A stretch of 64,000 bases of DNA from the human T2T-CHM13v2.0 reference genome, Homo sapiens, in the NCBI RefSeq assembly GCF_009914755.1, contig NC_060927.1; one strand, written 5' to 3'. Both the position numbers and the translations under genes were made by a program. This document shows positions 36,999-62,900 of this stretch, one piece after another; the first letter of the stretch is position 1; each line of letters starts with the position of its first letter. Under the pieces are notes generated by a model. That model saw nothing but the letters and a program-made list of their open reading frames with translations, was not told the DNA's origin and made no database searches.

Positions 36999-38044
36999 AA
37001 AAAAAAAAGGTATTCATATTGGAAGAAGTAAAATTATCTTAATTATTTCTAATTTTGGATAATAATTTTGTATATCGAAAATCCTTAGATGTAGAAAGAA
37101 TAATCCATTTTTTAAAATTGAAATAAATAAGTTTGGCAAGGTTTCAGGATTCAAGAACAACATACAAAAATGAATTGTATATCTATATAATAGCAATTAA
37201 CATTTTGAAATACGAAGTTAGAAAAACAATTACATTTACAATAGTATCAAAAAGAATACAAAAGTAAAGCTTCAAATAAAATTAACAAAATAAGTTTAAT
37301 GCTTTTATGTGGAAAACCACAAAACATTTCTGAAAGACCTAAATAAATTGAAAGTCATCTAATATTAAAGATTCAGAAGATTCAATATTGTTAAGGTGGC
37401 AATACTACCCAAATTGATCTATAAATTCACCACAATCCCTGTAAACATCCAAGTTGGATTACTGTTTAGAAATTGATAAGCTGATCCTAAAATTTACATG
37501 GAAATACATGAGACTCCAAATAGCCAAAACAATGTTGAAATAGAAAAAAAAAACCTGGAGGACTGCAAAACTTACTATAAAGGTACAGTAATCAAGATTC
37601 TGTAGTACTGGCATAAGAATAGACACACACATCAGTGGAATAGAATTGAGAGTACAGATGTAGACAGACCCTTACATCATATATGACCAACTGGTTATTG
37701 ACAAGAGTTTGGTGACAAACAGGGAAAAAAATAGCCTTCTCAATAAATGGTACTAGAAAAATTTGATATTCATATGAAAAGAAAATCTAAAGTTGGATGC
37801 TCTCACTCTGTATAATAAAAATTAACTCAAAATGAATCACAAACCTAAATTAAGAGCTAAAATTATAAAATTCTTACAACATAACAATAAATGTTTATGA
37901 CCTCGGGTTAGGTATTGGTTGGTTAGCTACAACAGCAAAAGTACAAGCAACAAAAGAAAAAAGTAGATTAAATCTCCTTGGCCAAAACTAAAAACTTTTG
38001 TGCTTCAAAAGACACCACCAGGAAAGTGAAAAGGCAATCCACAA

Positions 38045-38420
38045 GGTTATGGACTGAATATTTGTGTTTCCCCAAAATCCATATATTGAAACCTAATTCC
38101 CCAATGTCATAATATTTGAGGGTGAGGCTTTGGGGAGGTAATTAGGTCTTGAAGTAAGTAATGAGGGTAGAGCCCTCATGAATGGGATTAGTGTTCTTAT
38201 AAGAAGAGACACAAGAAAGATAATTTCTCTTTCTCTCTCTCTCTGTCTTCCATGTGAGGATTCAACAAGAAGGCACCCCCTACAAACCAGGAAAACAGCC
38301 CTCACAAGCCCCTTGATCTTGGACTTCCCAGCCTCCAGAATTGTAAAAAAAATAAATGATTGGTTTTTTAAGCCACCAAGTCTATGGTATTTGTTATAAC
38401 AGCCCTGGCTGACTAAGACA
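38045..38420 (+). mobile_element. MLT1A/A0 solo LTR inserted in the L1
   Basis: 'gttatggactgaatatttgtg...gactaagaca'; TSD cacaa/cacag within L1 'aggcaatccaca|gaataggagaaaat'. Confidence 0.9.
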
Positions 38421-39337
38421 CACAGAATAGGAGAAAATGTTTGCAAATCATATCTGATACGCAACTTGGGTCCAGAATAAAGAACTCTGACAACTGAATA
38501 GTAAAATAACAAATTTTAAAATGGGCAGAGAATGTGCATAGACATGTCTCCAAAGAAGATATGCAAATAGCCAATAGGCACATGAAAAGATGCTCAACAT
38601 CATTGGCTATCAGTTAAATAAAAATAAAAGCCATGATAATACCATTTCACACCCACTAGGATAGATATAGTAAAAAAGACATAACTGCTGGCAAGCATGT
38701 GAAAAAACTGAAACCCTCATATACTGATGGTGGGACTGTAAAATGGTGCCAATGCTTTGATAAACTGAATGGCAATTTATCAATACTGAAAATAGAGCTA
38801 TGATATGACCCAGAAATTACACTCCTAGGATTCCCAAGAGCAATAAGAACATACATCCACTCAAAATTAAGAAATAGAATGTAACATATCCACACAATGA
38901 AATATTTTTAGGCAATAAGAATGGAGTAGCAATATATGCTACAACATGAATGCGCCTTGAAAATATCATGGTATGTGAGAGAAGCCAGTTATAAAAGACC
39001 ACATATTGTATGATTCCATTTCTATGAAATGTTTATAATAGGCAAATCTGTAGAATTAGAAAGTAGATTCATGGTTATTTGGGGCCAGAAGTGGGGTGGT
39101 GTTGGGGAAAATTAGAAATGACTGCTAACAGGCACAGCATTTCTCTCTGAGGGAGCAAAAGTGCTCTAAAAGTATAATGTGGGGTTGTACAACTGTGTGA
39201 GTGTAGGAAAAAGTACTCAATTGTATTCTTTAAATGGATTAATTATAATTTATATCAATTACTTCTTAAATAGATCTATTATGAAAAATAATAGAACATT
39301 CCGCTGGAAATCATTTTGGCCTACTTGAGTTCAATGT

Positions 39338-39601
39338 ATTCATTTAAGTTTGGGGAAAACTGAGACTGGCAAGTCACGTAACATGTCTGAAGTCACACAG
39401 CTAGAAATGAGTAAAGCTGGGAATGGAATCCAACTAATAAAAATGGTAATTATATTTACTGAGATACCATTAGATATCTGCACTACTTGTGCCTCCTGAG
39501 ACACTCCTCCACAATTATTGGAGGCCTCCCACTATCTCTGCCTTTGGAACTACCTCCAGGATCTGCACTCCTGAACCTATTTCCTAATCTCACCAAGCTG
39601 G
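39338..39601 (+). repeat. Left arm (donor copy) of a perfect 264-bp inverted repeat; begins with a MIR fragment (about 39338-39432)
   Basis: Exact reverse complement of 41499-41762 by manual base-by-base comparison. Confidence 0.97.
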
Positions 39602-40072
39602 ACTGCTAGTCCTTTGCTCAAAGTCAGTTATTGCCCCTCTGCCTTTCCTTTTGGGTTTCTTATTATCTGTTTTCTTCCCAAGCCCATATTTACCTGGCAT
39701 CTTACAAGCCTCAGCTTTCCCTTTGTTCTACATTTCACAGCTTTCCAGGATCAAGTCCTTGCTCTTCAGTGGTACCAGTGCCACCCCTGGAATCCCACCC
39801 TTGGTCAGAGCTCATAATAGAGTTCAGACATTATGAGCTAAGTACCAGGTTGTCTTGTTTTTAGAAAAAAGTCTATAAGGCAAGTATCTTCTGGCCATTT
39901 TGGAGAATGTTGAAGTTTAGAAAGACTAAATAATTTGCCAAGGGTCATTTTGACAGAAAATGGTAGAGCAGGGAAATGACCTGTCTGATTCTGTTCTCCT
40001 TTCTCCTGTGCAGACAACCTGGAGGTCTTATGCTCCCGTTTATTGTTTTTACTATATTCATGGGTTATAGGA

Positions 40073-40563
40073 TCTGATAGTTTTCTGTTGCTGCTATAAC
40101 AAATTATCCACTAACATACAGGTTTAACACAACATAAATTTGTTATCTTACAGTTCTGTGTCTCAGAAATCTGATGCAAATCCCACTGGGCCAAATCAAG
40201 TGTCGCCAAAGCTGCATTCCTTCTCTAGGTCTAAAGAAGAATCCATTTCCTTGCCTTTTTAGCTTTTAGAGGCTGCATGCATTCCTTGGCTTACAGTACC
40301 TTTCCATCTTCAAAGCCAGTCATAGCTAGTCAAGCCTTTCTCAAATTTCATTCCTCTGACATTGGTTCCTTTTCTGCCTCCCTCCCCTTAATAGATTAAA
40401 GACCTATTAGATTATATTGAGCACACATGGATAATCCAGATTAATATCTCTCTATTAAAGTCAGCTGATTAGCAAGCGTGTCCCTTGTTGCTGTGTAAGG
40501 TAACATATTCACAGGTTTGATAAATAAGGGACATCTTTGGGGGCCATTATCCTGCCCATTATG
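40073..40563 (-). mobile_element. MLT1D/E-like solo LTR (inside the inverted-repeat spacer)
   Basis: 'gttttctgttgctgctataacaaatta...aagtcagctgattagcaa...gggccattatcctgccc'. Confidence 0.8.
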
Positions 40564-41416
40564 TAGGATGAGAATGGCTCTTCACTAGAACAGTGTAGTA
40601 ATCTCAAGTATCCTTCCCCAGCCCTCCTTATTTTACCATTCCATACCCTAACTATTTCCTTCATCCTCCATTAGGATCTGCCCTTTGACACATCTAATGG
40701 ATTGCTTCATGTCCAAACATTTTTCTCATTCATCCTTGCATCACAATTCATGTTGTCTTCCTCATTCATTTGGATTTCCACATATCCCTGGCTCAATGGA
40801 TAGTCTAAGTTGAACTCAAACGTTTATGTTGGATAATAGTATAATAAATTACTCCTACAACAAAATGCTGATATTTTAATATGGCCCCTACCCCATGCTT
40901 TATTGCAAAAGAAGTAGAGTCAATCCTTCAGGGATTCTCTGGATATACTTGGAAAGCTCAGGTTTCAAATCAGATCTAAGTTTTGTTTAAATCTGCCAGA
41001 GTGCTCAGGGGCTGTATCAGTTAAGGTTTTTGTTGTGGTTTCAAGTGACAGAATTGAATTTGATAGTCATTTTCATGCTGTGGCCAAGCAAAAGAAAAAA
41101 TTAATTTTAAAAAATACAATAATTAGAGTTGAAATAGAGCAAAATAAGAAAAGAAAGAAGTATAGAAGGATCTTGTTAAGACATTTCTATTAGAAAAAAA
41201 CTTGAAAATGTCAGAGTTTTTTTGTTTGTTTTGTTTTATTTTTTATGTTACTCCCCTCAAGAGAAAGACTATCAAAGTAATTAGCTGGCCAAGTTTAGCT
41301 TCCTGTCTTTCCTTGGCTCTACTATGGCAACGAAGGAAAAGATCTGGCAAGGAATAAACTAATGGATTGTAGGACATTTCTTTAGTTTCATTTGTGAGAA
41401 AATAGGGATTAAAGGC

Positions 41417-42072
41417 GTTATCTCTCAGGGTTCAACCAGAAAAGAAGAACCAATAGGAGGTATAGATTAATAGATGTATATGTAATGCAAGAAATTGGCC
41501 AGCTTGGTGAGATTAGGAAATAGGTTCAGGAGTGCAGATCCTGGAGGTAGTTCCAAAGGCAGAGATAGTGGGAGGCCTCCAATAATTGTGGAGGAGTGTC
41601 TCAGGAGGCACAAGTAGTGCAGATATCTAATGGTATCTCAGTAAATATAATTACCATTTTTATTAGTTGGATTCCATTCCCAGCTTTACTCATTTCTAGC
41701 TGTGTGACTTCAGACATGTTACGTGACTTGCCAGTCTCAGTTTTCCCCAAACTTAAATGAATTATTGAGGGCTGGCTAAGTAAGTTCAAACTCTGCAGAC
41801 CATCAGGAAGGGAGGCTGGAACTCTCAATACAGGCTGGAGCTGCAAGCCATGGGCAGAATTTCTGAGGGAAGCCTCAGCTCTGCTCTTAATGCCTTTCAC
41901 TGATTGAATCACACCAACCCAAATTGTCAAGCATAATTTCTTCACTTAAAGTAAACTGATTATGTACTTTAATCCCATCTACAAAATGGCTTCACAACAC
42001 TTAAATTAGTGCTTGATTAAATAACTGAAAACTGTAGCCTAGCCAAGCTGATACAGCAAAAAGAGCATCACA
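41417..42072 (-). mobile_element. MLT2 (ERVL, D/E/F-like) solo LTR interrupted by the 264-bp duplicated segment
   Basis: 'cagggttcaaccaga...gaaccaatagga...gaaattggc[insert]attgagggctggc...cttaaagtaaactgatt...tagcctagccaagctga...catcaca'. Confidence 0.85.
41499..41762 (-). repeat. Right arm (inserted copy) of the perfect 264-bp inverted repeat
   Basis: Exact reverse complement of 39338-39601; splits the MLT2 LTR. Confidence 0.97.
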
Positions 42073-43344
42073 GAAGAGGAGTAGCAGAACAGGTCATCTC
42101 AGTTTATAGACTCATCAAAAACTGTTCACAATGTAGGAGAGATAATTCACCAGAACAAAATAATGGGAGAATATTGGAAAGGGGTAATATACTCTGGAAA
42201 GCCAAAAGCAATGCCCCTAAAGAGACTGGAGAGATTGGCAAGAGAGGTTCTTGCAGAGTAAGTGGACAGTCTAAGATGGTAAGAGGGCTTTTTTTACCTA
42301 TCTGGATCTTTCTATCAAATTGCCTTCTGCATGTGTCCATCCGATGAGCTACTACTCTGTGAGGCACCATAGTCCTTCTTGTTATCTTTCATCTCTGTAA
42401 TGCAGAGTAACTTTGATGTGGTAAGTAATTTAGGATTATCAGGTACAGGAGAGTTTAGTTGGAAAAAATATTTTGAAGGCATAGATGCCTATGGGAACCC
42501 TCAAATTACAACATATGGGCAGCTACTGTTTTAGCCTATGGTCAAGTGTGGCCTTAGTGATAGGATCACTAAGATATATCAACCTTCTAGTAACAACATG
42601 CCCACAGGGACTGAGAGAAATTTACTACACTCAAGGAAAACAACTCATTGCCATCAGCACAAAACAAACTTAAGATGGAAAACATGATAAACATGAAGTC
42701 AAAACTTTAAGAGATATATCTGTCAAATAATACATCCAATTGATGTCTAAATTCCTCAGGATTTCTGAAAACACAGAGGTTAAAGTTGAGCTGGAGCCTC
42801 TCCTTTGTCTGTTCCACCACCTGAATTGTTGGGGTTTTTTTCCTTACCATTCATTTTGCAAATTTGTATAAGCTCTCCCTTTCTTGGTTACCTAACATCT
42901 TTCCCACCTTCATTCCCTCTATAAATACCATTTCTGCAGCATCTTCAAAAGCTTATCTCCTCTCCACAGCTGTCTGTTCAAAGTTGAGAGTCTGACACTG
43001 ATTTAACCAGCTTGAATTGCTCTGAAATAAATTTCTCAGGGTAGAGACCAATTGCTTAAGCATTGTCAATAGCTGAATATAACGTTGGTGCTTCATAAAC
43101 ACAGAATGAACATAAATAACAGAAAATCTAAAATAGAGTATTAACTTCTGTATTTTGTACAATTAAAATTTGATGTTGGGGATTGAACTATGGAACCCCC
43201 CCAAAATTTATCAGTAAGTGGGTGCTGTCTTCTGTTATATAGGAGACAGATTTTTACAAATGGAAAGGCGGGGATCCTTTCAGCATTATATGAATGCACA
43301 GGAATACTGACTTTTTATTCCACTGCGCCTAGACTCTCCATAGA

Positions 43345-43755
43345 AGAGAATATTAGCTGTTCACAATTATTCTTTCCCCTGTGGCCTCCCTCTGGGTAGA
43401 AAAGACTTCTCAATTCTATTGACTTTGAACTTGCCCATGTGATTTCATTTGGCTAACGAACTGTAAGTGGATATGGCTTGAACAGAGGTCTTAAATGTGC
43501 TCGCATGTATTGCTTTGGCCTCTAGAGGTACGGAATTTTATGAGTTCAGAATGAAACTGTCATGTTTCCAGAATGAGGAGACCTGTGGAAAAAATCTGGA
43601 CTCATTCACAGCCTAAAACGAGTCCGTCTAACCCCAACCGACCCTAGTCAAGCCCAACAGGGTCACAGCTGACTCTCAGATGTGAAAGCAGGAAATAAAT
43701 GTTTATTATTATAAACCACTGAGATTAAAGGGTGGCTTTTTACATAGTATAATCA
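43345..43755 (+). mobile_element. MLT1G/H-like LTR
   Basis: 'ccatgtgatttcatttggctaacgaa...gaaataaatgtttattattataaaccactgaga'. Confidence 0.6.
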
Positions 43756-44050
43756 GAATGATAATAAGTAATATATTCCCAGATCCTCAAATAATTTCAA
43801 TGAGAAGAAATGAAACATTAGGAAATATTGAGAGTCTAAAGAAAAGTTTGCTCCTACATTATACTTCCTGGAATCTCTCAGGTCAATTTCATCCCACAGA
43901 TGAGATCTCAGAAATGTGATGAGTCTGTAGTTCTTTTTTTCAAGCATTTTTTGTAATAAGGCACCTTGGACGTATGCCCAACCAATGTGTAATGATTAGT
44001 CTACCCACAGGTATAAATGAATACCTCTGGAGGAAACACAAATTATTCAT

Positions 44051-47678: not shown

Positions 47679-48335
47679 GATGTGGAGAAATAGGAACGCT
47701 TTTATACTGTTGGTGGGAGTGTAAATTAGTTCAACCATTGTGGAAGACAGTGTAGCGATTCTTCAAGGATCTAGAACCAGAAATATCATTTGACCCAGCA
47801 ATCCCATTACTGGGTATATACCCAAAGGATTATAAATCATTCTACTATAAAGACACATGCACACGTATGTTAATTGCGGCACTATTCACAATAGCAAAGA
47901 CTTGGAACCAACCCAAATGCCCATCAATGATAGACGGGATAAAGAAAATGTGGCACATATACACCATGGAATACTATGCGGCCATAAAAAAGAGGATGAG
48001 TTCATGTCCTTTGCAGGGATATGGATGATGCTGGAAACCATCATTCTCAGCAAACTAACACAAGAACAGAAAACCAAACACCGCATGTTCTCACTCATAA
48101 GTGGGAGCTGAACTATGAGAACACACGGACACAGGGAAGGGAACATCACACACTAGGGCCTGTTGGGGGGTTGGGGGCTAGGGGAGGATAGCATTAGGAG
48201 AAATACCTAATGTAGATGATGGGTTGATGGGTGGCGCAAACCACCATGGCATGTGTATACCTATGTAATAAACCTGCATGTTCTGTACATGTATCCCAGA
48301 ACCTAAAGAGTAATAAAAAAAATAAATAAATAAAT
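47679..48335 (+). mobile_element. L1PA (about L1PA7) 5'-truncated 3' end
   Basis: 'gatgtggagaaataggaacgctttta...gtatcccagaacctaaag' plus A-rich tail. Confidence 0.92.
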
Positions 48336-58801: not shown

Positions 58802-59999
58802 CAACAGAATAACCCAGGAGAACCTTCATCACATTTGTAATCATTTATTCAGTGACAGAATTCCCATTTAAATAGTAAGCAGAACTCTTATTGCCCATCT
58901 CTAAGTCCAGAGCTTGGGTCATAGAAGTACTCAGTAAATGTCTCTTAGATCACAAGTCAATTGAGGTATCTATTAGACTTGGGCTCTGACTTGAAGTGGT
59001 AGGAATCTGAACAGGAACCCCCTTGGGGTAGGCACAGTTAAAGTCTAAGCAAGTGGTCAACATGGAGGAATTCTGCCCAGATAGAAGAGCTCCACCCCTC
59101 TCCAGGGATCGGGAACAGGACGCTAGCCCTTTGAAAGAGCAACTGGTGGTGGCAAAATAGAACCCCAATCAAAAAGAGATAAGGATGCTAAACATCTATA
59201 AGGATGCTATAGAGAAAAAAAAAGTTCTTGTTGATAAGGTGACACTTGATCAGAGACCTGCAGGCAGTGAGGGATAAAGCCATGCAAATACCTGGAGATG
59301 AAGCATTCTGGGCAGAGGGACCAACATGTGCAAATAATATAAGAAGCAACTTGTTTGGCAAATTCAGAAATAACCTATTTCTTTAAATATTGATGCTAGG
59401 CTTTAATTTTGAGATAGACATACTTGATGTACTTGCCTAAAGTTAGAATTATGTCCAGATTTGGGGGGGAGAGTAAGGAGATATTGGTTAAATGGCTATA
59501 GGCTTAGAAATTGGGCAATGCCCAATATACTAAAACTAGAATTTATTTGCATAGAATTTCTAACCAAAATGCAAATTTATTCATTTATTTTTAATTTAAT
59601 TTGATTTTAAGTTCCAGGATATATGTGCAGGATGTGCAGGTTTGTTATATAGGTAAATGTGTGCCACGGTGGTTTGCTACACCCATCAACCCATCATCTA
59701 GGTATTAAGCCCCACATGCATGAGCTATTTATCCTGATATTCTCCCTCCCCACACACCTGCCACCCCCAAACAGGCCCCAGTGTGTGTTGTTCCCCTCCC
59801 TGTGCTCTCATTTTTCAGCTCCCACTTATAAGTAAGAACATGTGGTGTTTGCTTTTCTGTTCCTATGTTAGTTTGCTGAGGCTAATGGCTTCCAGCTCCA
59901 TCCGTGTCCCTGCAAAGGACATGATCTCATTCCTTTTTATGGCTGCATAGTATTCCATGTGTATATGTACCATATTTTCTTTATCCAGTCTATCATTGC

Positions 60000-62900
60000 T
60001 GGGCATTTGGGTTGATTCCATGTCTTGGCTATTGTGAATAGTGCTGCAATGAACATACACGTGCATGTATCTTTATAACAGAATGATTTATATTCCTTTG
60101 GGTATATACCCAGTAATGGGATTGCTGGGTCAGGTGGTATTTCTGGTTCTAGGTCTTTGAGGAATCACCACACTAACTTCCACAATGGTTGAATTTCTTT
60201 ACATTCCCTCCAACAGTGTAAAAGTGTTCCTATTTCTCCGTAGCCTCACAAGCATCTGTTGTTTCTTGAGATTTTAATAATCACCATTCCAAATGTCATG
60301 AGATGCTGTCTCATTATGGTTTTCATGTGCATTTCTCTGATGATCAGTGATGTTGAGCTTTTTTTCATATGTTTATTGGCCGCATAAATGTCTTCTATTT
60401 AGAAGTGTCTGTTCACGTTCTTTACCCACTTTTTAATGGGGTTGTTTTTTTCTGGTAAATTTAAGTTCCTTGTAGACCCTGGATATTAGACCTTTGTCAG
60501 ATGGATAGATTGCAAAAATGTCATCCCTTTCTGTAGGCTATCTGTTCACTCTTATGAGAGTTTCTTTTGCTGTGCAGAAGCTCTTTAGTTTAATTGGATC
60601 CTAAATTTTGCTTTTGTTGCAATTGTCTTGATTTTTTCATCATGAAATCTTTGCCTGTACCTATTGTCTATATTGTCTAGATTTTCTTCCATGGTTTTTA
60701 TAGCTTTAGGTTTTACATCCATCTTGAATTAAGCCTTTAATCCATCTTGAGTTAATTTTTGTATAAGGGGTAAGGAAGTGATCCAGTTTCAATTTTCTGC
60801 ATATGGCTAGCCAGTTTTCCCAGCACCATTTATTAAATAGCTTGTTTCATCAGGTTTGTTGAAGATTAGATGGTTGTAGATGTGATTCTTATTTCTGATA
60901 TCTCTATTCCATTCCATTGCTCTATGTGTCTGTTTTTGTACCAGTACCATGCTGTTTCGATTACTCTAGCTTTGTTGTACATTAATAGTTTGAAGTTGGG
61001 TAGCATGATGCCTCCAGCTTTGTTCTTTTTGCTTAGGATTGTCTTGACTATATGGGCTCTTTTTGGGTTCTATATGAATTTTAAAGTAGTTTTTTCTAAT
61101 TCTGTGAAGAATGTCAATAGTAGTTTAGTGGGAAGAGCATTGAATCTATAAATTACTTTGGGCAGTATGGCCATTTTTATGATATTGAGTCTTGCTATCA
61201 ATGAGCATGGAATATTTTTCCATTTGTTTATGTACTCTCTTACTTCTTTGAGCAGTGGTTTGCAGTTCTCCTTGAAGGGGTCCTTCACTTCTCTTGTTAG
61301 TTGTATTCCTAGGTATTTTATTCTCTTTGTAGCAATTGTGAGTAGGAGTTCATTCATGATTTGGCTCTCTGCTTGTCTATTGTTTGTGTATAGGAATGCC
61401 TGTGATTTTTGCACCTTGATTTTGTATCCTGATAATTTGCTGAAGTTGTTCATCAGCTTAAGAAGCTTTTGGGCTAAGACGATGGAGTTTTCTAGATATA
61501 GGATCATGTCATCTGCAAACAGAGACAGGTTGATTTCCTCTCTTCCTATTTGATACCCTTTTTTTCTTTCCCTTGCCTGAGTGCCCTGGCCAGAATTTCC
61601 AATACTGTGTTGAATATGAGTGGTGAGAGAGGGCATCCTTGTCTTGTGCTAGTTTTCAAGGGGAATGCTTCCAGCTTTTGCCCATTCAGTATGATATAAG
61701 CTGTGGGTTTGGCATAAATGGCTCTTATCATTTTGAGGTACGTTCCATCAACACCTAGTTTATTTAGAGTTTTTAATGGAAGGATGTTGAATTTTATTGA
61801 AGGCCTTTTCTACATTTATTTAAATAATCATGTGGTTTTTCCCTTTATTTCTGTTTATGTGATGAAGTATGTTTATTGATTTGCCTATGTTAAACCAGCC
61901 TTGCAGCCTGGGGATGAAGCCGACTTGATTGTGGTGGATAAGCTTTCTGATGTGCTGGATTCAGTTTGCCAGTATTTTATTGAGGATTTTTGCATTGATA
62001 TTCATCAGTGATACTGGCCTAAAGTTTTCTTTTTATGTTGTATCTCTGCCAGGTTTTGGTATTAGAATGATGCTGGCCTCAAAAAATGAGTTAAGGAGGA
62101 GTCTTTCCTTTTCATTATTTGGACTACTTTTAATTATTTTGAATAGTTTCAGAAGAAATGGTTTATAGTATTCTCTGATGGTTGTTTGTATTTCTGCGGA
62201 GTCAATGGTGATTTCCCCTTTATCGTTTTTTATTGTTTCTATATGATTCCTCTCTCTTTTTTCTTCTTTATTAGTCTAGCTAGCAGTCTATCTATTTTAT
62301 TAATTTTCTCAAAAACCCAGGTCCTGGATTCATTGATTTTTTGAAGAGTTTTTCGTGTCTCTATCTCCTTCAATTCCACTCTGATCTTGGTTATTTCTTG
62401 TCTTCTGCTAGCTTTGGGGTTTATTTTGGGGTTTGTTTTCTCTTAGTTTTAGTTGTGATGTTATGGTGTCGATTTGAGATATTTCTAGCTTTTTGATGTG
62501 GGAATTTAGTGCTATAAAGTTCCCTGTTAACACTGATTTAGCTGTGTCCCAGAGATTCTAGCATGTTGTCTCTTTTTTCTTATTGGTTTCAAAGAACTTC
62601 TTTATTTCTGCCTTAATTTTTTATTTACCCAGGAGTCATTCAGGAACAGGTTGTTAAATTTCCATGTAGTTGTGTGCTTTGAGTGAATTTCTTAATCTTG
62701 AGTTCTAATATAATTGTGCTGTGGTCTGAGATACTGTTATAATTTCAGCTCTCCCACATTTGCTAAATAGTGTTTTACTTCCAATTATGTGATAATTTTT
62801 AGAGTAAGTGCCATGTGGTGCCAAGAAGAATGTATATGCTGTCTTTTTGGTTGCAGAGTTCTGTAGATATCTATCAGGTTCACTTGATCCAGAGCTGAGT

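What the first reader, a model, noticed from the sequence alone, without database searches (positions are those of the whole stretch)
39338..41762. Perfect 264-bp inverted duplication of mostly unique DNA, arms 1,897 bp apart
Seen: 39338-39601 and 41499-41762 are exact reverse complements (264/264 by manual comparison), while the surrounding repeats are heavily decayed. The segment is a MIR fragment plus unique DNA, not a mobile element, and has no TSD or poly(A). The right copy splits an MLT2 LTR at 'gaaattggc|...|attattgaggg', apparently replacing a few LTR bases, so the right copy is the derived one. Inference: a local template-switch event (FoSTeS/MMBIR or templated DSB repair). Zero mismatches imply it is recent, possibly human-specific or polymorphic, or is homogenised by gene conversion.
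Basis: partly seen in the sequence, partly recalled or inferred. Interest (0 to 1): 0.85.

Follow-up and report, generated by a model that had tools for sequence, protein, structure and literature searches.

The report
Young inverted local duplication inside an LTR
A 264-base stretch of single-copy human DNA was copied once, flipped, and pasted 1.9 kb away into an old retroviral LTR, which is a clean but ordinary example of a known kind of DNA copying error.

Summary
Window 39338-39601 and 41499-41762 are exact reverse complements (264 of 264) with 1,897 nt between them. It is the only 100% inverted pair of 60 nt or more in the window. The 3.1-Gb assembly holds this 264-mer only at these two places.

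The right copy is the derived one. Its flanks, 41419-41498 and 41763-42075, are adjacent, collinear parts of one interspersed LTR-type repeat in 18 of 28 other genomic copies. A profile of 14 copies aligns as one hit when the arm is removed and as two when it is present. Nine profile positions are missing at the site. There is no target-site duplication and no poly(A), and no model of a mobile element or of an inversion fits.

The best reading is a single DNA-templated, inverted local duplication, made by template switch or synthesis-primed break repair. One junction may lie in about 17 nt of imperfect homology, which is suggestive only. The other junction is blunt.

Zero mismatches bound the age at about 10-14 Myr, so human specificity is not shown. 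No other human or ape genome could be searched.

This is a known class of event, and the interest is modest.

The parts
39338..39601 (+). Source copy of the 264-nt segment (left arm)
   Evidence: It is 100% complementary to 41499-41762. It sits in DNA that matches nothing else in the genome. The nearest interspersed repeat ends at about 39298, 40 nt upstream. It is taken as the source because the other copy interrupts an LTR.
41499..41762 (-). Derived, inverted copy (right arm), inserted into an LTR-type repeat
   Evidence: Its flanks are adjacent parts of one repeat family in 18 of 28 other loci. The LTR profile gives one hit of 295.7 bits with the arm removed and two hits (39.7 and 245.7 bits) with it present.
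39602..41498 (.). 1,897-nt spacer between the arms, in its original orientation
   Evidence: The LTR part at its right end (41419-41498) is collinear with, and on the same strand as, the LTR part beyond the arm. The spacer has therefore not been flipped in this assembly.
41419..41498 (+). 5' part of the interrupted LTR-type repeat
   Evidence: It matches the stretch just upstream of the right-flank match in other copies: 13 of 28 loci at E<=1e-3, and 18 of 28 at E<=1 with a collinearity filter.
41763..42075 (+). 3' part of the interrupted LTR-type repeat
   Evidence: 38 of the 40 scored genome hits (451 first-look candidates) are other copies at 70-80% identity, and together they cover window 41751-42076.
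41752..41762 (+). Last 11 nt of the arm (CTTAAATGAAT on the + strand), which can stand in for the 9 missing LTR positions; possible homeology used at this junction
   Evidence: Keeping these 11 nt raises the LTR profile score from 295.7 to 304.4 bits and leaves no empty profile column. 6 of 1000 random 11-mers reach that score. The length 11 was chosen afterwards as the best of 31 lengths, and 94 of 1000 random 9-mers also reach it.
41764..41768 (-). 5-nt run (TCAAT on the - strand) just outside the arm, shared with 39331-39335 at an offset of 1 nt
   Evidence: Read. A run of 5 or more within 10 nt and an offset of up to 2 nt occurs in 3.2% of 200,000 random pairs of window positions.
39331..39335 (+). 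Matching 5-nt run (TCAAT) just outside the source copy
41498..41499 (.). Blunt junction (LTR 5' part | arm)
   Evidence: The outward flanks of source and target share a longest run of only 2 nt here, and a run of 2 or more occurs in 90% of random pairs. At most one ambiguous C lies at the join.

Best explanation
One mutational event copied 253-264 nt of single-copy DNA (39338-39601) by DNA synthesis and placed the copy, inverted, 1.9 kb away inside an old LTR-type repeat (41499-41762). The event removed or overwrote 9 LTR positions.

Shown:
- The segment has exactly two copies in the genome.
- The two copies are exact reverse complements.
- The LTR is continuous once the right arm is taken out.
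- There is no TSD and no poly(A).
- The spacer is not inverted.

Inferred mechanism: a free 3' DNA end at the LTR site, either a stalled nascent strand or a resected break end, paired with the opposite strand of the nearby segment. It was extended for about 250 nt and then rejoined the LTR. I put about 45% on a more specific version. In it, the junction at 41762/41763 formed inside about 17 nt of imperfect homology (a 5-nt TCAAT run, a 1-2 nt mismatch, then 11 nt that resemble the LTR's own sequence), and the junction at 41498/41499 was sealed without homology, as in end joining. Whether the free end came from a replication fork (FoSTeS/MMBIR) or from a double-strand break (synthesis-dependent repair plus end joining) cannot be told from one haplotype.

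The event is young. It is probably later than the split from Old World monkeys and most likely falls within the last few million years.

Its only evident consequence is structural. It created a perfect 264-nt inverted repeat that could in principle pair and flip the 1.9-kb spacer.
For: - Exact complementarity.
- Only two copies in the 3.1-Gb assembly. No weaker relatives of the arm in the window, in a 201-nt genome search, or in 182,564 bases of other human loci (best in-arm hit 35 nt, E=0.002).
- LTR continuity across the arm: both flanks hit adjacent, same-strand parts of the repeat in 18 of 28 loci. The profile gives one hit of 295.7 bits with the arm removed and a split hit with it present. 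With the arm removed, 9 empty profile columns (100-108) lie at the junction.
- Identity falls from 100% to background at both arm edges, with no decayed extension.
- No direct repeat at the junctions and no tandem array there.
- Junction homeology: the 11-nt arm end fits the LTR profile (304.4 bits against 298.8 +/- 2.0 for random 11-mers; 6 of 1000 reach it), and the 5-nt flank run has P=0.032.
- Blunt other junction: longest shared run 2 nt.
- Age: P(0 differences) is 0.0004-0.005 at 25 Myr, and the 95% upper bound is 9.5-14.2 Myr for mutation rates of 0.4-0.6e-9 per bp per year (rates recalled; arithmetic).
- The class is described in print: interspersed inverted duplications among human complex SVs (passages); 5,295 complex SVs, 73.7% with inverted segments (passages); template switches that create perfect inverted repeats (passages).
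Against: - No allele or orthologue without the insertion was seen. No other human or ape genome is held by the tools, and one scan of prokaryote genome contigs for stray copies found nothing.
- The homeology at the 41762 junction is only suggestive. The 11-nt length was chosen afterwards as the best of 31, and random 9-mers and 10-mers reach the same score in 94 and 49 of 1000 trials. Keeping 9-10 nt from the other end of the arm scores almost as well, 303.0 bits. Four of the 14 profile copies (L004, L005, L006, L008) look like duplicates of one locus.
- MMBIR or FoSTeS would normally leave microhomology at both junctions, and one junction has none.
- A source 1.9 kb away is further than the single-stranded zone of one fork.
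- Read-level support for the two junctions in this assembly could not be inspected.
Confidence: 0.8

Rival explanations
1. The duplication is old (tens of Myr), and its arms have been kept identical by repeated gene conversion between the inverted copies.
For: Zero differences in 264 nt can also result from homogenisation. Inverted repeats close together on one chromosome are known to convert each other (established knowledge for large palindromes; not tested here).
Against: The arms are only 264 nt long. Identity is 100% right up to both edges and then falls to background, with no diverged margin of the kind partial conversion tracts would leave. The surrounding LTR is 70-80% identical to its relatives, so tens of Myr without a single escaped difference would be needed, against P(0)=0.0004-0.005 at 25 Myr without conversion.
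Confidence: 0.07
2. The feature is an assembly artefact or a change private to the sequenced cell line, and is not a feature of human germline genomes.
For: A perfect, mismatch-free copy is what a very recent or artificial event would look like. Only one assembly could be examined.
Against: The whole structure spans 2.4 kb, well within single long reads, so a consensus assembly should not create it (inference). The junction lies at a plausible homeology, and the insertion is clean with a small target-site loss, as in natural events. No read data were available to test this.
Confidence: 0.05
3. The whole 2,425-nt unit is a transposon with 264-nt terminal inverted repeats, or the 264-mer is itself a small mobile element that inserted twice.
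For: Long terminal inverted repeats around an internal segment resemble foldback or long-TIR DNA transposons (resemblance recalled).
Against: The LTR half at 41419-41498 lies inside the supposed element, yet it is contiguous with the half outside once the right arm alone is removed. The 264-mer has only two copies in 3.1 Gb. There is no target-site duplication around either the arm or the whole unit.
Confidence: 0.01
4. The inverted duplicate is a by-product of an inversion of the spacer made by staggered breaks, a process that leaves inverted duplications at inversion ends.
For: That model yields exactly two inverted copies flanking an inverted segment (known from Drosophila inversions; recalled).
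Against: The model predicts that the LTR part inside the spacer would be inverted relative to the part outside. In fact the two parts are collinear and on the same strand, and they join into one profile hit when the arm is removed.
Confidence: 0.02
5. The insertion was copied from an RNA by reverse transcription during break repair, not from DNA.
For: Templated insertions derived from transcripts have been described in human genomes (recalled; not read here).
Against: There is no poly(A) and no TSD. The source lies 1.9 kb away in a region with no annotated gene within 100 kb upstream (hub annotation). There was no Rfam match in 38000-43000. Nearness favours a DNA template.
Confidence: 0.03

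Closest known systems
Interspersed (dispersed) inverted duplication, with or without loss at the insertion site: a class of complex structural variant in human population surveys
   Same: A second, inverted copy of a non-repetitive segment is inserted at a non-adjacent site on the same chromosome, with a small loss at the target. Interspersed inverted duplications, one of them with a deletion, are named as human complex SVs in bioRxiv 10.1101/200170 (passages). gnomAD-SV resolved 5,295 complex SVs, 73.7% of them with inverted segments (PMC7334194, passages).
   Different: Here the event is seen as part of a reference-grade assembly and not as a called variant. Its frequency and the existence of the empty allele are unknown. 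The subclass label 'dDUP' is recalled and did not occur in the main text that I searched (0 occurrences).
Short-range template switch events (four-point model; Walker et al. 2021, PMC7954356; Loytynoja and Goldman 2017, PMC5453318)
   Same: [quoted passage not shown]
   Different: Those events use templates 'tens to hundreds of nucleotides' away. Here the copy is 253-264 nt long and the template lies 1.9 kb away. PMC5453318 was seen only in a search listing.
FoSTeS / MMBIR templated insertions (e.g. PMC8421209)
   Same: Polymerase template switching produces templated insertions, and homology is short or imperfect at a junction.
   Different: One of the two junctions here has no microhomology. 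No further rearrangement accompanies it. That paper was seen only as a listing with the start of its abstract.
Small inverted triplications (PMC13334657)
   Same: The inverted pieces are of similar size (median 160 bp) and are ascribed to replication errors and template switching (passages).
   Different: Those variants have a DUP/IN/DUP structure with flanking direct duplications, spacers of about 30 bp and 6-bp junctions. Here there is no direct duplication and the spacer is 1,897 nt.
Inverted repeats that mediate recurrent human inversions by NAHR (PMC6748972, PMC3961182)
   Same: Highly identical inverted repeats flank a segment that could be flipped.
   Different: The 24 NAHR inversions in that set use inverted repeats of 654 bp to 24.2 kb (passages), and 264 nt is below that range. 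No inversion is seen here. 'chr3' and '3p24' occur 0 times in the main texts of both papers. Their supplements were not opened.

Membership tests
Interspersed inverted duplication / templated insertion | A second copy of an otherwise unique segment at a non-adjacent site on the same chromosome | tested here: met
   Exactly 2 genome matches, 1,897 nt apart.
Interspersed inverted duplication / templated insertion | The copy is in inverted orientation | tested here: met
   264 of 264 reverse-complementary.
Interspersed inverted duplication / templated insertion | The copy interrupts sequence that was contiguous before | tested here: met
   The LTR halves are adjacent in 18 of 28 other copies. The profile gives a single hit once the arm is removed.
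Interspersed inverted duplication / templated insertion | No hallmarks of transposition (TSD, poly(A), many copies) | tested here: met
Interspersed inverted duplication / templated insertion | An allele or orthologue without the insertion exists | not testable with these tools
   Only this one assembly is held. A scan of prokaryote contigs found nothing.
FoSTeS / MMBIR | Microhomology at the switch junctions | tested here: inconclusive
   The junction at 41762/41763 may have homeology (P=0.032 for the flank run; 6 of 1000 for the 11-mer, chosen post hoc). The junction at 41498/41499 has none (run of 2).
FoSTeS / MMBIR | Origin in replication, and point mutations near the junctions | not testable with these tools
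   This needs the ancestral sequence or trio data.
Short-range template switch (four-point model) | Template within tens to hundreds of nt of the mutation cluster | tested here: not met
   The template is 1,897 nt away. The range is taken from PMC7954356 passages.
DNA transposon with long terminal inverted repeats | TSD around the whole unit, other copies in the genome, and a target that is contiguous outside both arms | tested here: not met
   No TSD. Two copies of the arm only. The target LTR is contiguous around the right arm alone.
Inversion with breakpoint duplications (staggered breaks) | The segment between the copies is inverted relative to its ancestral state | tested here: not met
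   The LTR part inside the spacer is collinear with the part outside.
Small inverted triplication | Direct duplications flanking the inverted piece | tested here: not met
   No direct repeat of 30 nt or more in 37000-44000. Only two chance-level direct pairs of 18-20 nt in 38000-43000.
   No repeat library is held. The LTR is shown to be an interspersed repeat (451 first-look candidates). The arm gave no repeat-like hits. Both names rest on recall.

The most novel reading that the evidence does not exclude
The event is specific to the human lineage, and perhaps still segregating. It would be a mid-range templated insertion primed on about 17 nt of imperfect homology, and it would fill the size gap between short-range template switches (tens of nt) and kilobase-to-megabase MMBIR rearrangements. 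It would also show the birth of a perfect 264-nt inverted repeat, before any decay, that can now flip the 1.9 kb between its arms.
Probability: 0.2. Interest if true: 0.5.

Novelty: new member of a known kind. Interest (0 to 1): 0.3.

Why it matters
This is a clean, datable example of how a local copying error creates a long perfect inverted repeat out of single-copy DNA. Both junctions are readable, and the old LTR serves as a built-in record of the state before insertion. If pangenome or ape data show an empty allele, its sequence would tell directly whether the event was primed on imperfect homology. The haplotypes would also show whether a 264-nt repeat is long enough to flip its spacer. 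The locus lies in a gene desert, so no effect on a gene is expected.

Tried and rejected
- **MIR content of the arm.** I tried a genome search with 39270-39470 (only the two own copies), blastn of 39200-39750 against the window (only self and the right arm), and blastn against 56 other human loci totalling 182,564 bases (best in-arm hit 35 nt, E=0.002). The MIR label therefore remains untested.
- **A repeat crossing the left arm's edge**, which would confirm the source copy independently. The 38 foreign hits to 38950-39990 all end by query position 349, about window 39298, 40 nt short of the arm.
- **Rfam on 38000-43000.** No family matched.
- **Stray copies of the locus in prokaryote genome contigs**, searched with a 40-nt pattern. 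None found. This was a long shot and says nothing about other human genomes.
- **Tandem repeats at the junctions.** None; there are two small arrays elsewhere.
- **Further small templated pieces or a TSD near the junctions.** Only chance-level pairs of 15-24 nt.
- **Models considered and rejected:** TIR transposon, twice-inserted small element, inversion with staggered breaks, small inverted triplication. Reasons are given under rivals and membership.
- **Literature.** The searches were by topic and not by locus, so I make no claim that this locus is absent from print. No supplementary tables were opened.
Full report
**1. The observation**

A repeat scan of 37000-44000 finds one inverted pair and no direct repeat of 30 nt or more. 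The arms are 39338-39601 and 41499-41762, 264 nt each, 100% complementary, with 1,897 nt between them. I read both arms on the two strands, and a script confirmed that one is the exact reverse complement of the other.

Across the whole window, 31 inverted pairs of 60 nt or more exist. This pair is the only one at 100%. The other 24 that were listed are 71-90% identical and look like dispersed repeats.

The window's own assembly (3.1 Gb; the window is contig 3, 22568001-22632000) contains the 264-mer at exactly these two places (2 candidates, 2 scored). It reproduces 41150-42110 base for base. The feature is therefore in the assembly and is not peculiar to the window file.

**2. Which copy is derived**

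A genome search with 41150-42110 returned 40 scored hits out of 451 first-look candidates. Two were the locus itself and the left arm. The other 38 were copies of one interspersed repeat, at 70-80% identity, and together they cover only window 41751-42076.

I blasted 41000-42200 against the 28 fetched copies. The right flank matched in all 28. The short left flank (41419-41500) matched just upstream, on the same strand, in 13 of 28 at E<=1e-3. With a looser threshold (E<=1) and a collinearity filter, it matched in 18 of 28.

I built a profile from 14 of those 18 copies. Four (L016, L018, L023, L028) were dropped because 134-364 nt separate their two parts.
- With the arm in place, the profile hits the window in two pieces, 39.7 and 245.7 bits.
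- With the arm cut out, it hits in one piece of 295.7 bits spanning profile positions 15-436.

The right arm therefore sits inside a once-continuous LTR-type repeat and is the derived copy.

With the arm removed, nine profile columns (100-108) are empty at the join. The name MLT2 could not be checked because no repeat library is held.

**3. What the segment is**

The arm has no other relatives.
- A 201-nt genome search across its left edge found only the two own copies.
- A sensitive blastn of 39200-39750 against the window found only itself and the right arm.
- Against 182,564 bases of other human loci, the best hit inside the arm was 35 nt at E=0.002.

An interspersed repeat upstream (38950 to about 39298) stops 40 nt before the arm.

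The arm is 42% G+C and has one CpG. Rfam finds nothing in 38000-43000.

**4. The junctions**

There is no target-site duplication and no poly(A). The only other short repeats in 38000-43000 are chance-level pairs of 15-24 nt at 74-93%. No tandem array lies at either junction.

*Junction 41498/41499.* The outward flanks of source and target share a longest run of 2 nt, which is the chance level (P=0.90). This is a blunt join.

*Junction 41762/41763.* Two things stand out.
- Just outside the arms, both loci carry TCAAT (39331-39335, and the minus strand of 41764-41768), at an offset of one base. A run this long, this close, occurs in 3.2% of 200,000 random pairs.
- The last 11 nt of the arm can stand in for the nine missing LTR positions. 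Keeping them raises the profile score to 304.4 bits, the best of 31 lengths tried, and leaves no empty column. Random 11-mers give 298.8 +/- 2.0 bits, and 6 of 1000 reach 304.4.

Several results count against reading too much into this.
- The length was chosen after the fact.
- Random 9-mers and 10-mers reach 304.4 bits in 94 and 49 of 1000 trials.
- Keeping 9-10 nt from the other end of the arm scores 303.0 bits.
- Four of the 14 profile copies look like duplicates of one locus.

I therefore treat a tract of about 17 nt of imperfect homology at this junction as suggestive only.

**5. Mechanism**

The anatomy fits a single DNA-templated event. A free 3' end at the LTR site paired with the opposite strand of a segment 1.9 kb away. 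It was extended by about 250 nt, and the product was rejoined to the LTR.

Either direction of synthesis fits.
- A break end from the right side of the LTR could have primed on the homeology, with its extended end then joined bluntly to the left side.
- A strand arriving from the left could have switched bluntly to the source and returned to the LTR through the homeology.

Replication-based switching (FoSTeS/MMBIR) and synthesis-dependent break repair with end joining cannot be separated from a single haplotype. The blunt junction and the 1.9-kb distance lean slightly towards the break-repair version.

**6. Models rejected**

- *Transposon with 264-nt terminal repeats.* One LTR half lies inside the supposed element, yet it is contiguous with the half outside once the right arm alone is removed.
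- *Small mobile element inserted twice.* There are only two copies in 3.1 Gb and no TSD.
- *Inversion with staggered breaks.* This predicts LTR halves in opposite orientation, but they are collinear.
- *Small inverted triplication.* This needs flanking direct duplications (PMC13334657, passages), and there are none.

**7. Age**

With recalled mutation rates of 0.4-0.6e-9 per bp per year, zero differences in 264 nt gives a 95% upper bound of 9.5-14.2 Myr and a median of 2.2-3.3 Myr.
- P(0) at 6.5 Myr is 0.13-0.25.
- P(0) at 25 Myr is 0.0004-0.005.
- If paralogue divergence equalled a recalled human-chimpanzee divergence of 1.2%, P(0) would be 0.04.

The copy is therefore young compared with the LTR, which is 70-80% identical to its relatives. 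Human specificity is likely but not shown, and polymorphism is only a possibility.

Long-term gene conversion is unlikely for arms this short. Identity also stays perfect to both edges and then drops to background.

**8. Comparison with what is known**

- Interspersed inverted duplications, including one with a deletion, are named among human complex structural variants (bioRxiv 10.1101/200170, passages).
- gnomAD-SV resolved 5,295 complex variants, 73.7% of them with inverted segments (PMC7334194, passages).
- Short-range template switches that create perfect inverted repeats are documented in great apes, but their templates lie tens to hundreds of nt away (PMC7954356, passages).
- Inversions made by recombination between inverted repeats used repeats of 654 bp to 24.2 kb in the best-studied set (PMC6748972, passages), so a 264-nt repeat is below the documented range.
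- Papers on MMBIR insertions (PMC8421209) and on widely spaced inverted repeats (PMC10164571, PMC6103520) were seen only as listings with the start of the abstract.

My literature searches were by topic. No supplement was opened. I make no claim that this locus is undescribed.

**9. Verdict**

The event belongs to a known class, lies in a gene desert, and has no evident function. Its value is as a tidy natural example with both junctions readable.

The open questions are the empty-site sequence, the age, whether it is polymorphic, and the orientation of the spacer. All of them need other human and ape assemblies, which these tools do not hold.

Noticed in passing
L004, L005, L006, L008 (G000 C19:47219150-47219486 minus strand, C19:47290404-47290739, C2:132746155-132746489, C20:30013824-30014157): Four copies of the same LTR-type repeat share near-identical sequence, including the DNA upstream of the LTR. 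They look like one locus spread by segmental duplication, two of them about 71 kb apart in opposite orientation on contig 19. They should count as one independent LTR copy in any statistics.
   Followed up: partly
window 38950-39298: An abundant interspersed repeat (2,059 first-look candidates; 38 foreign hits at 70-85% identity) ends about 40 nt before the left arm. Its family was not identified.
   Followed up: no
window 47684-48325 and 59588-60239: Three inverted matches (281 nt at 89%, 142 nt at 85%, 113 nt at 77%) lie in register about 11-12 kb apart. They are probably one longer diverged inverted pair of a repeat of 600 nt or more, both within stretches masked as repeats.
   Followed up: no
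window 37000-37400: A very A+T-rich stretch, with G+C of 0.21-0.27 in 250-nt windows.
   Followed up: no
window 39796-39852: A small imperfect hairpin-like inverted repeat in the spacer, with 23-nt arms at 74% and an 11-nt loop. It is probably chance.
   Followed up: no
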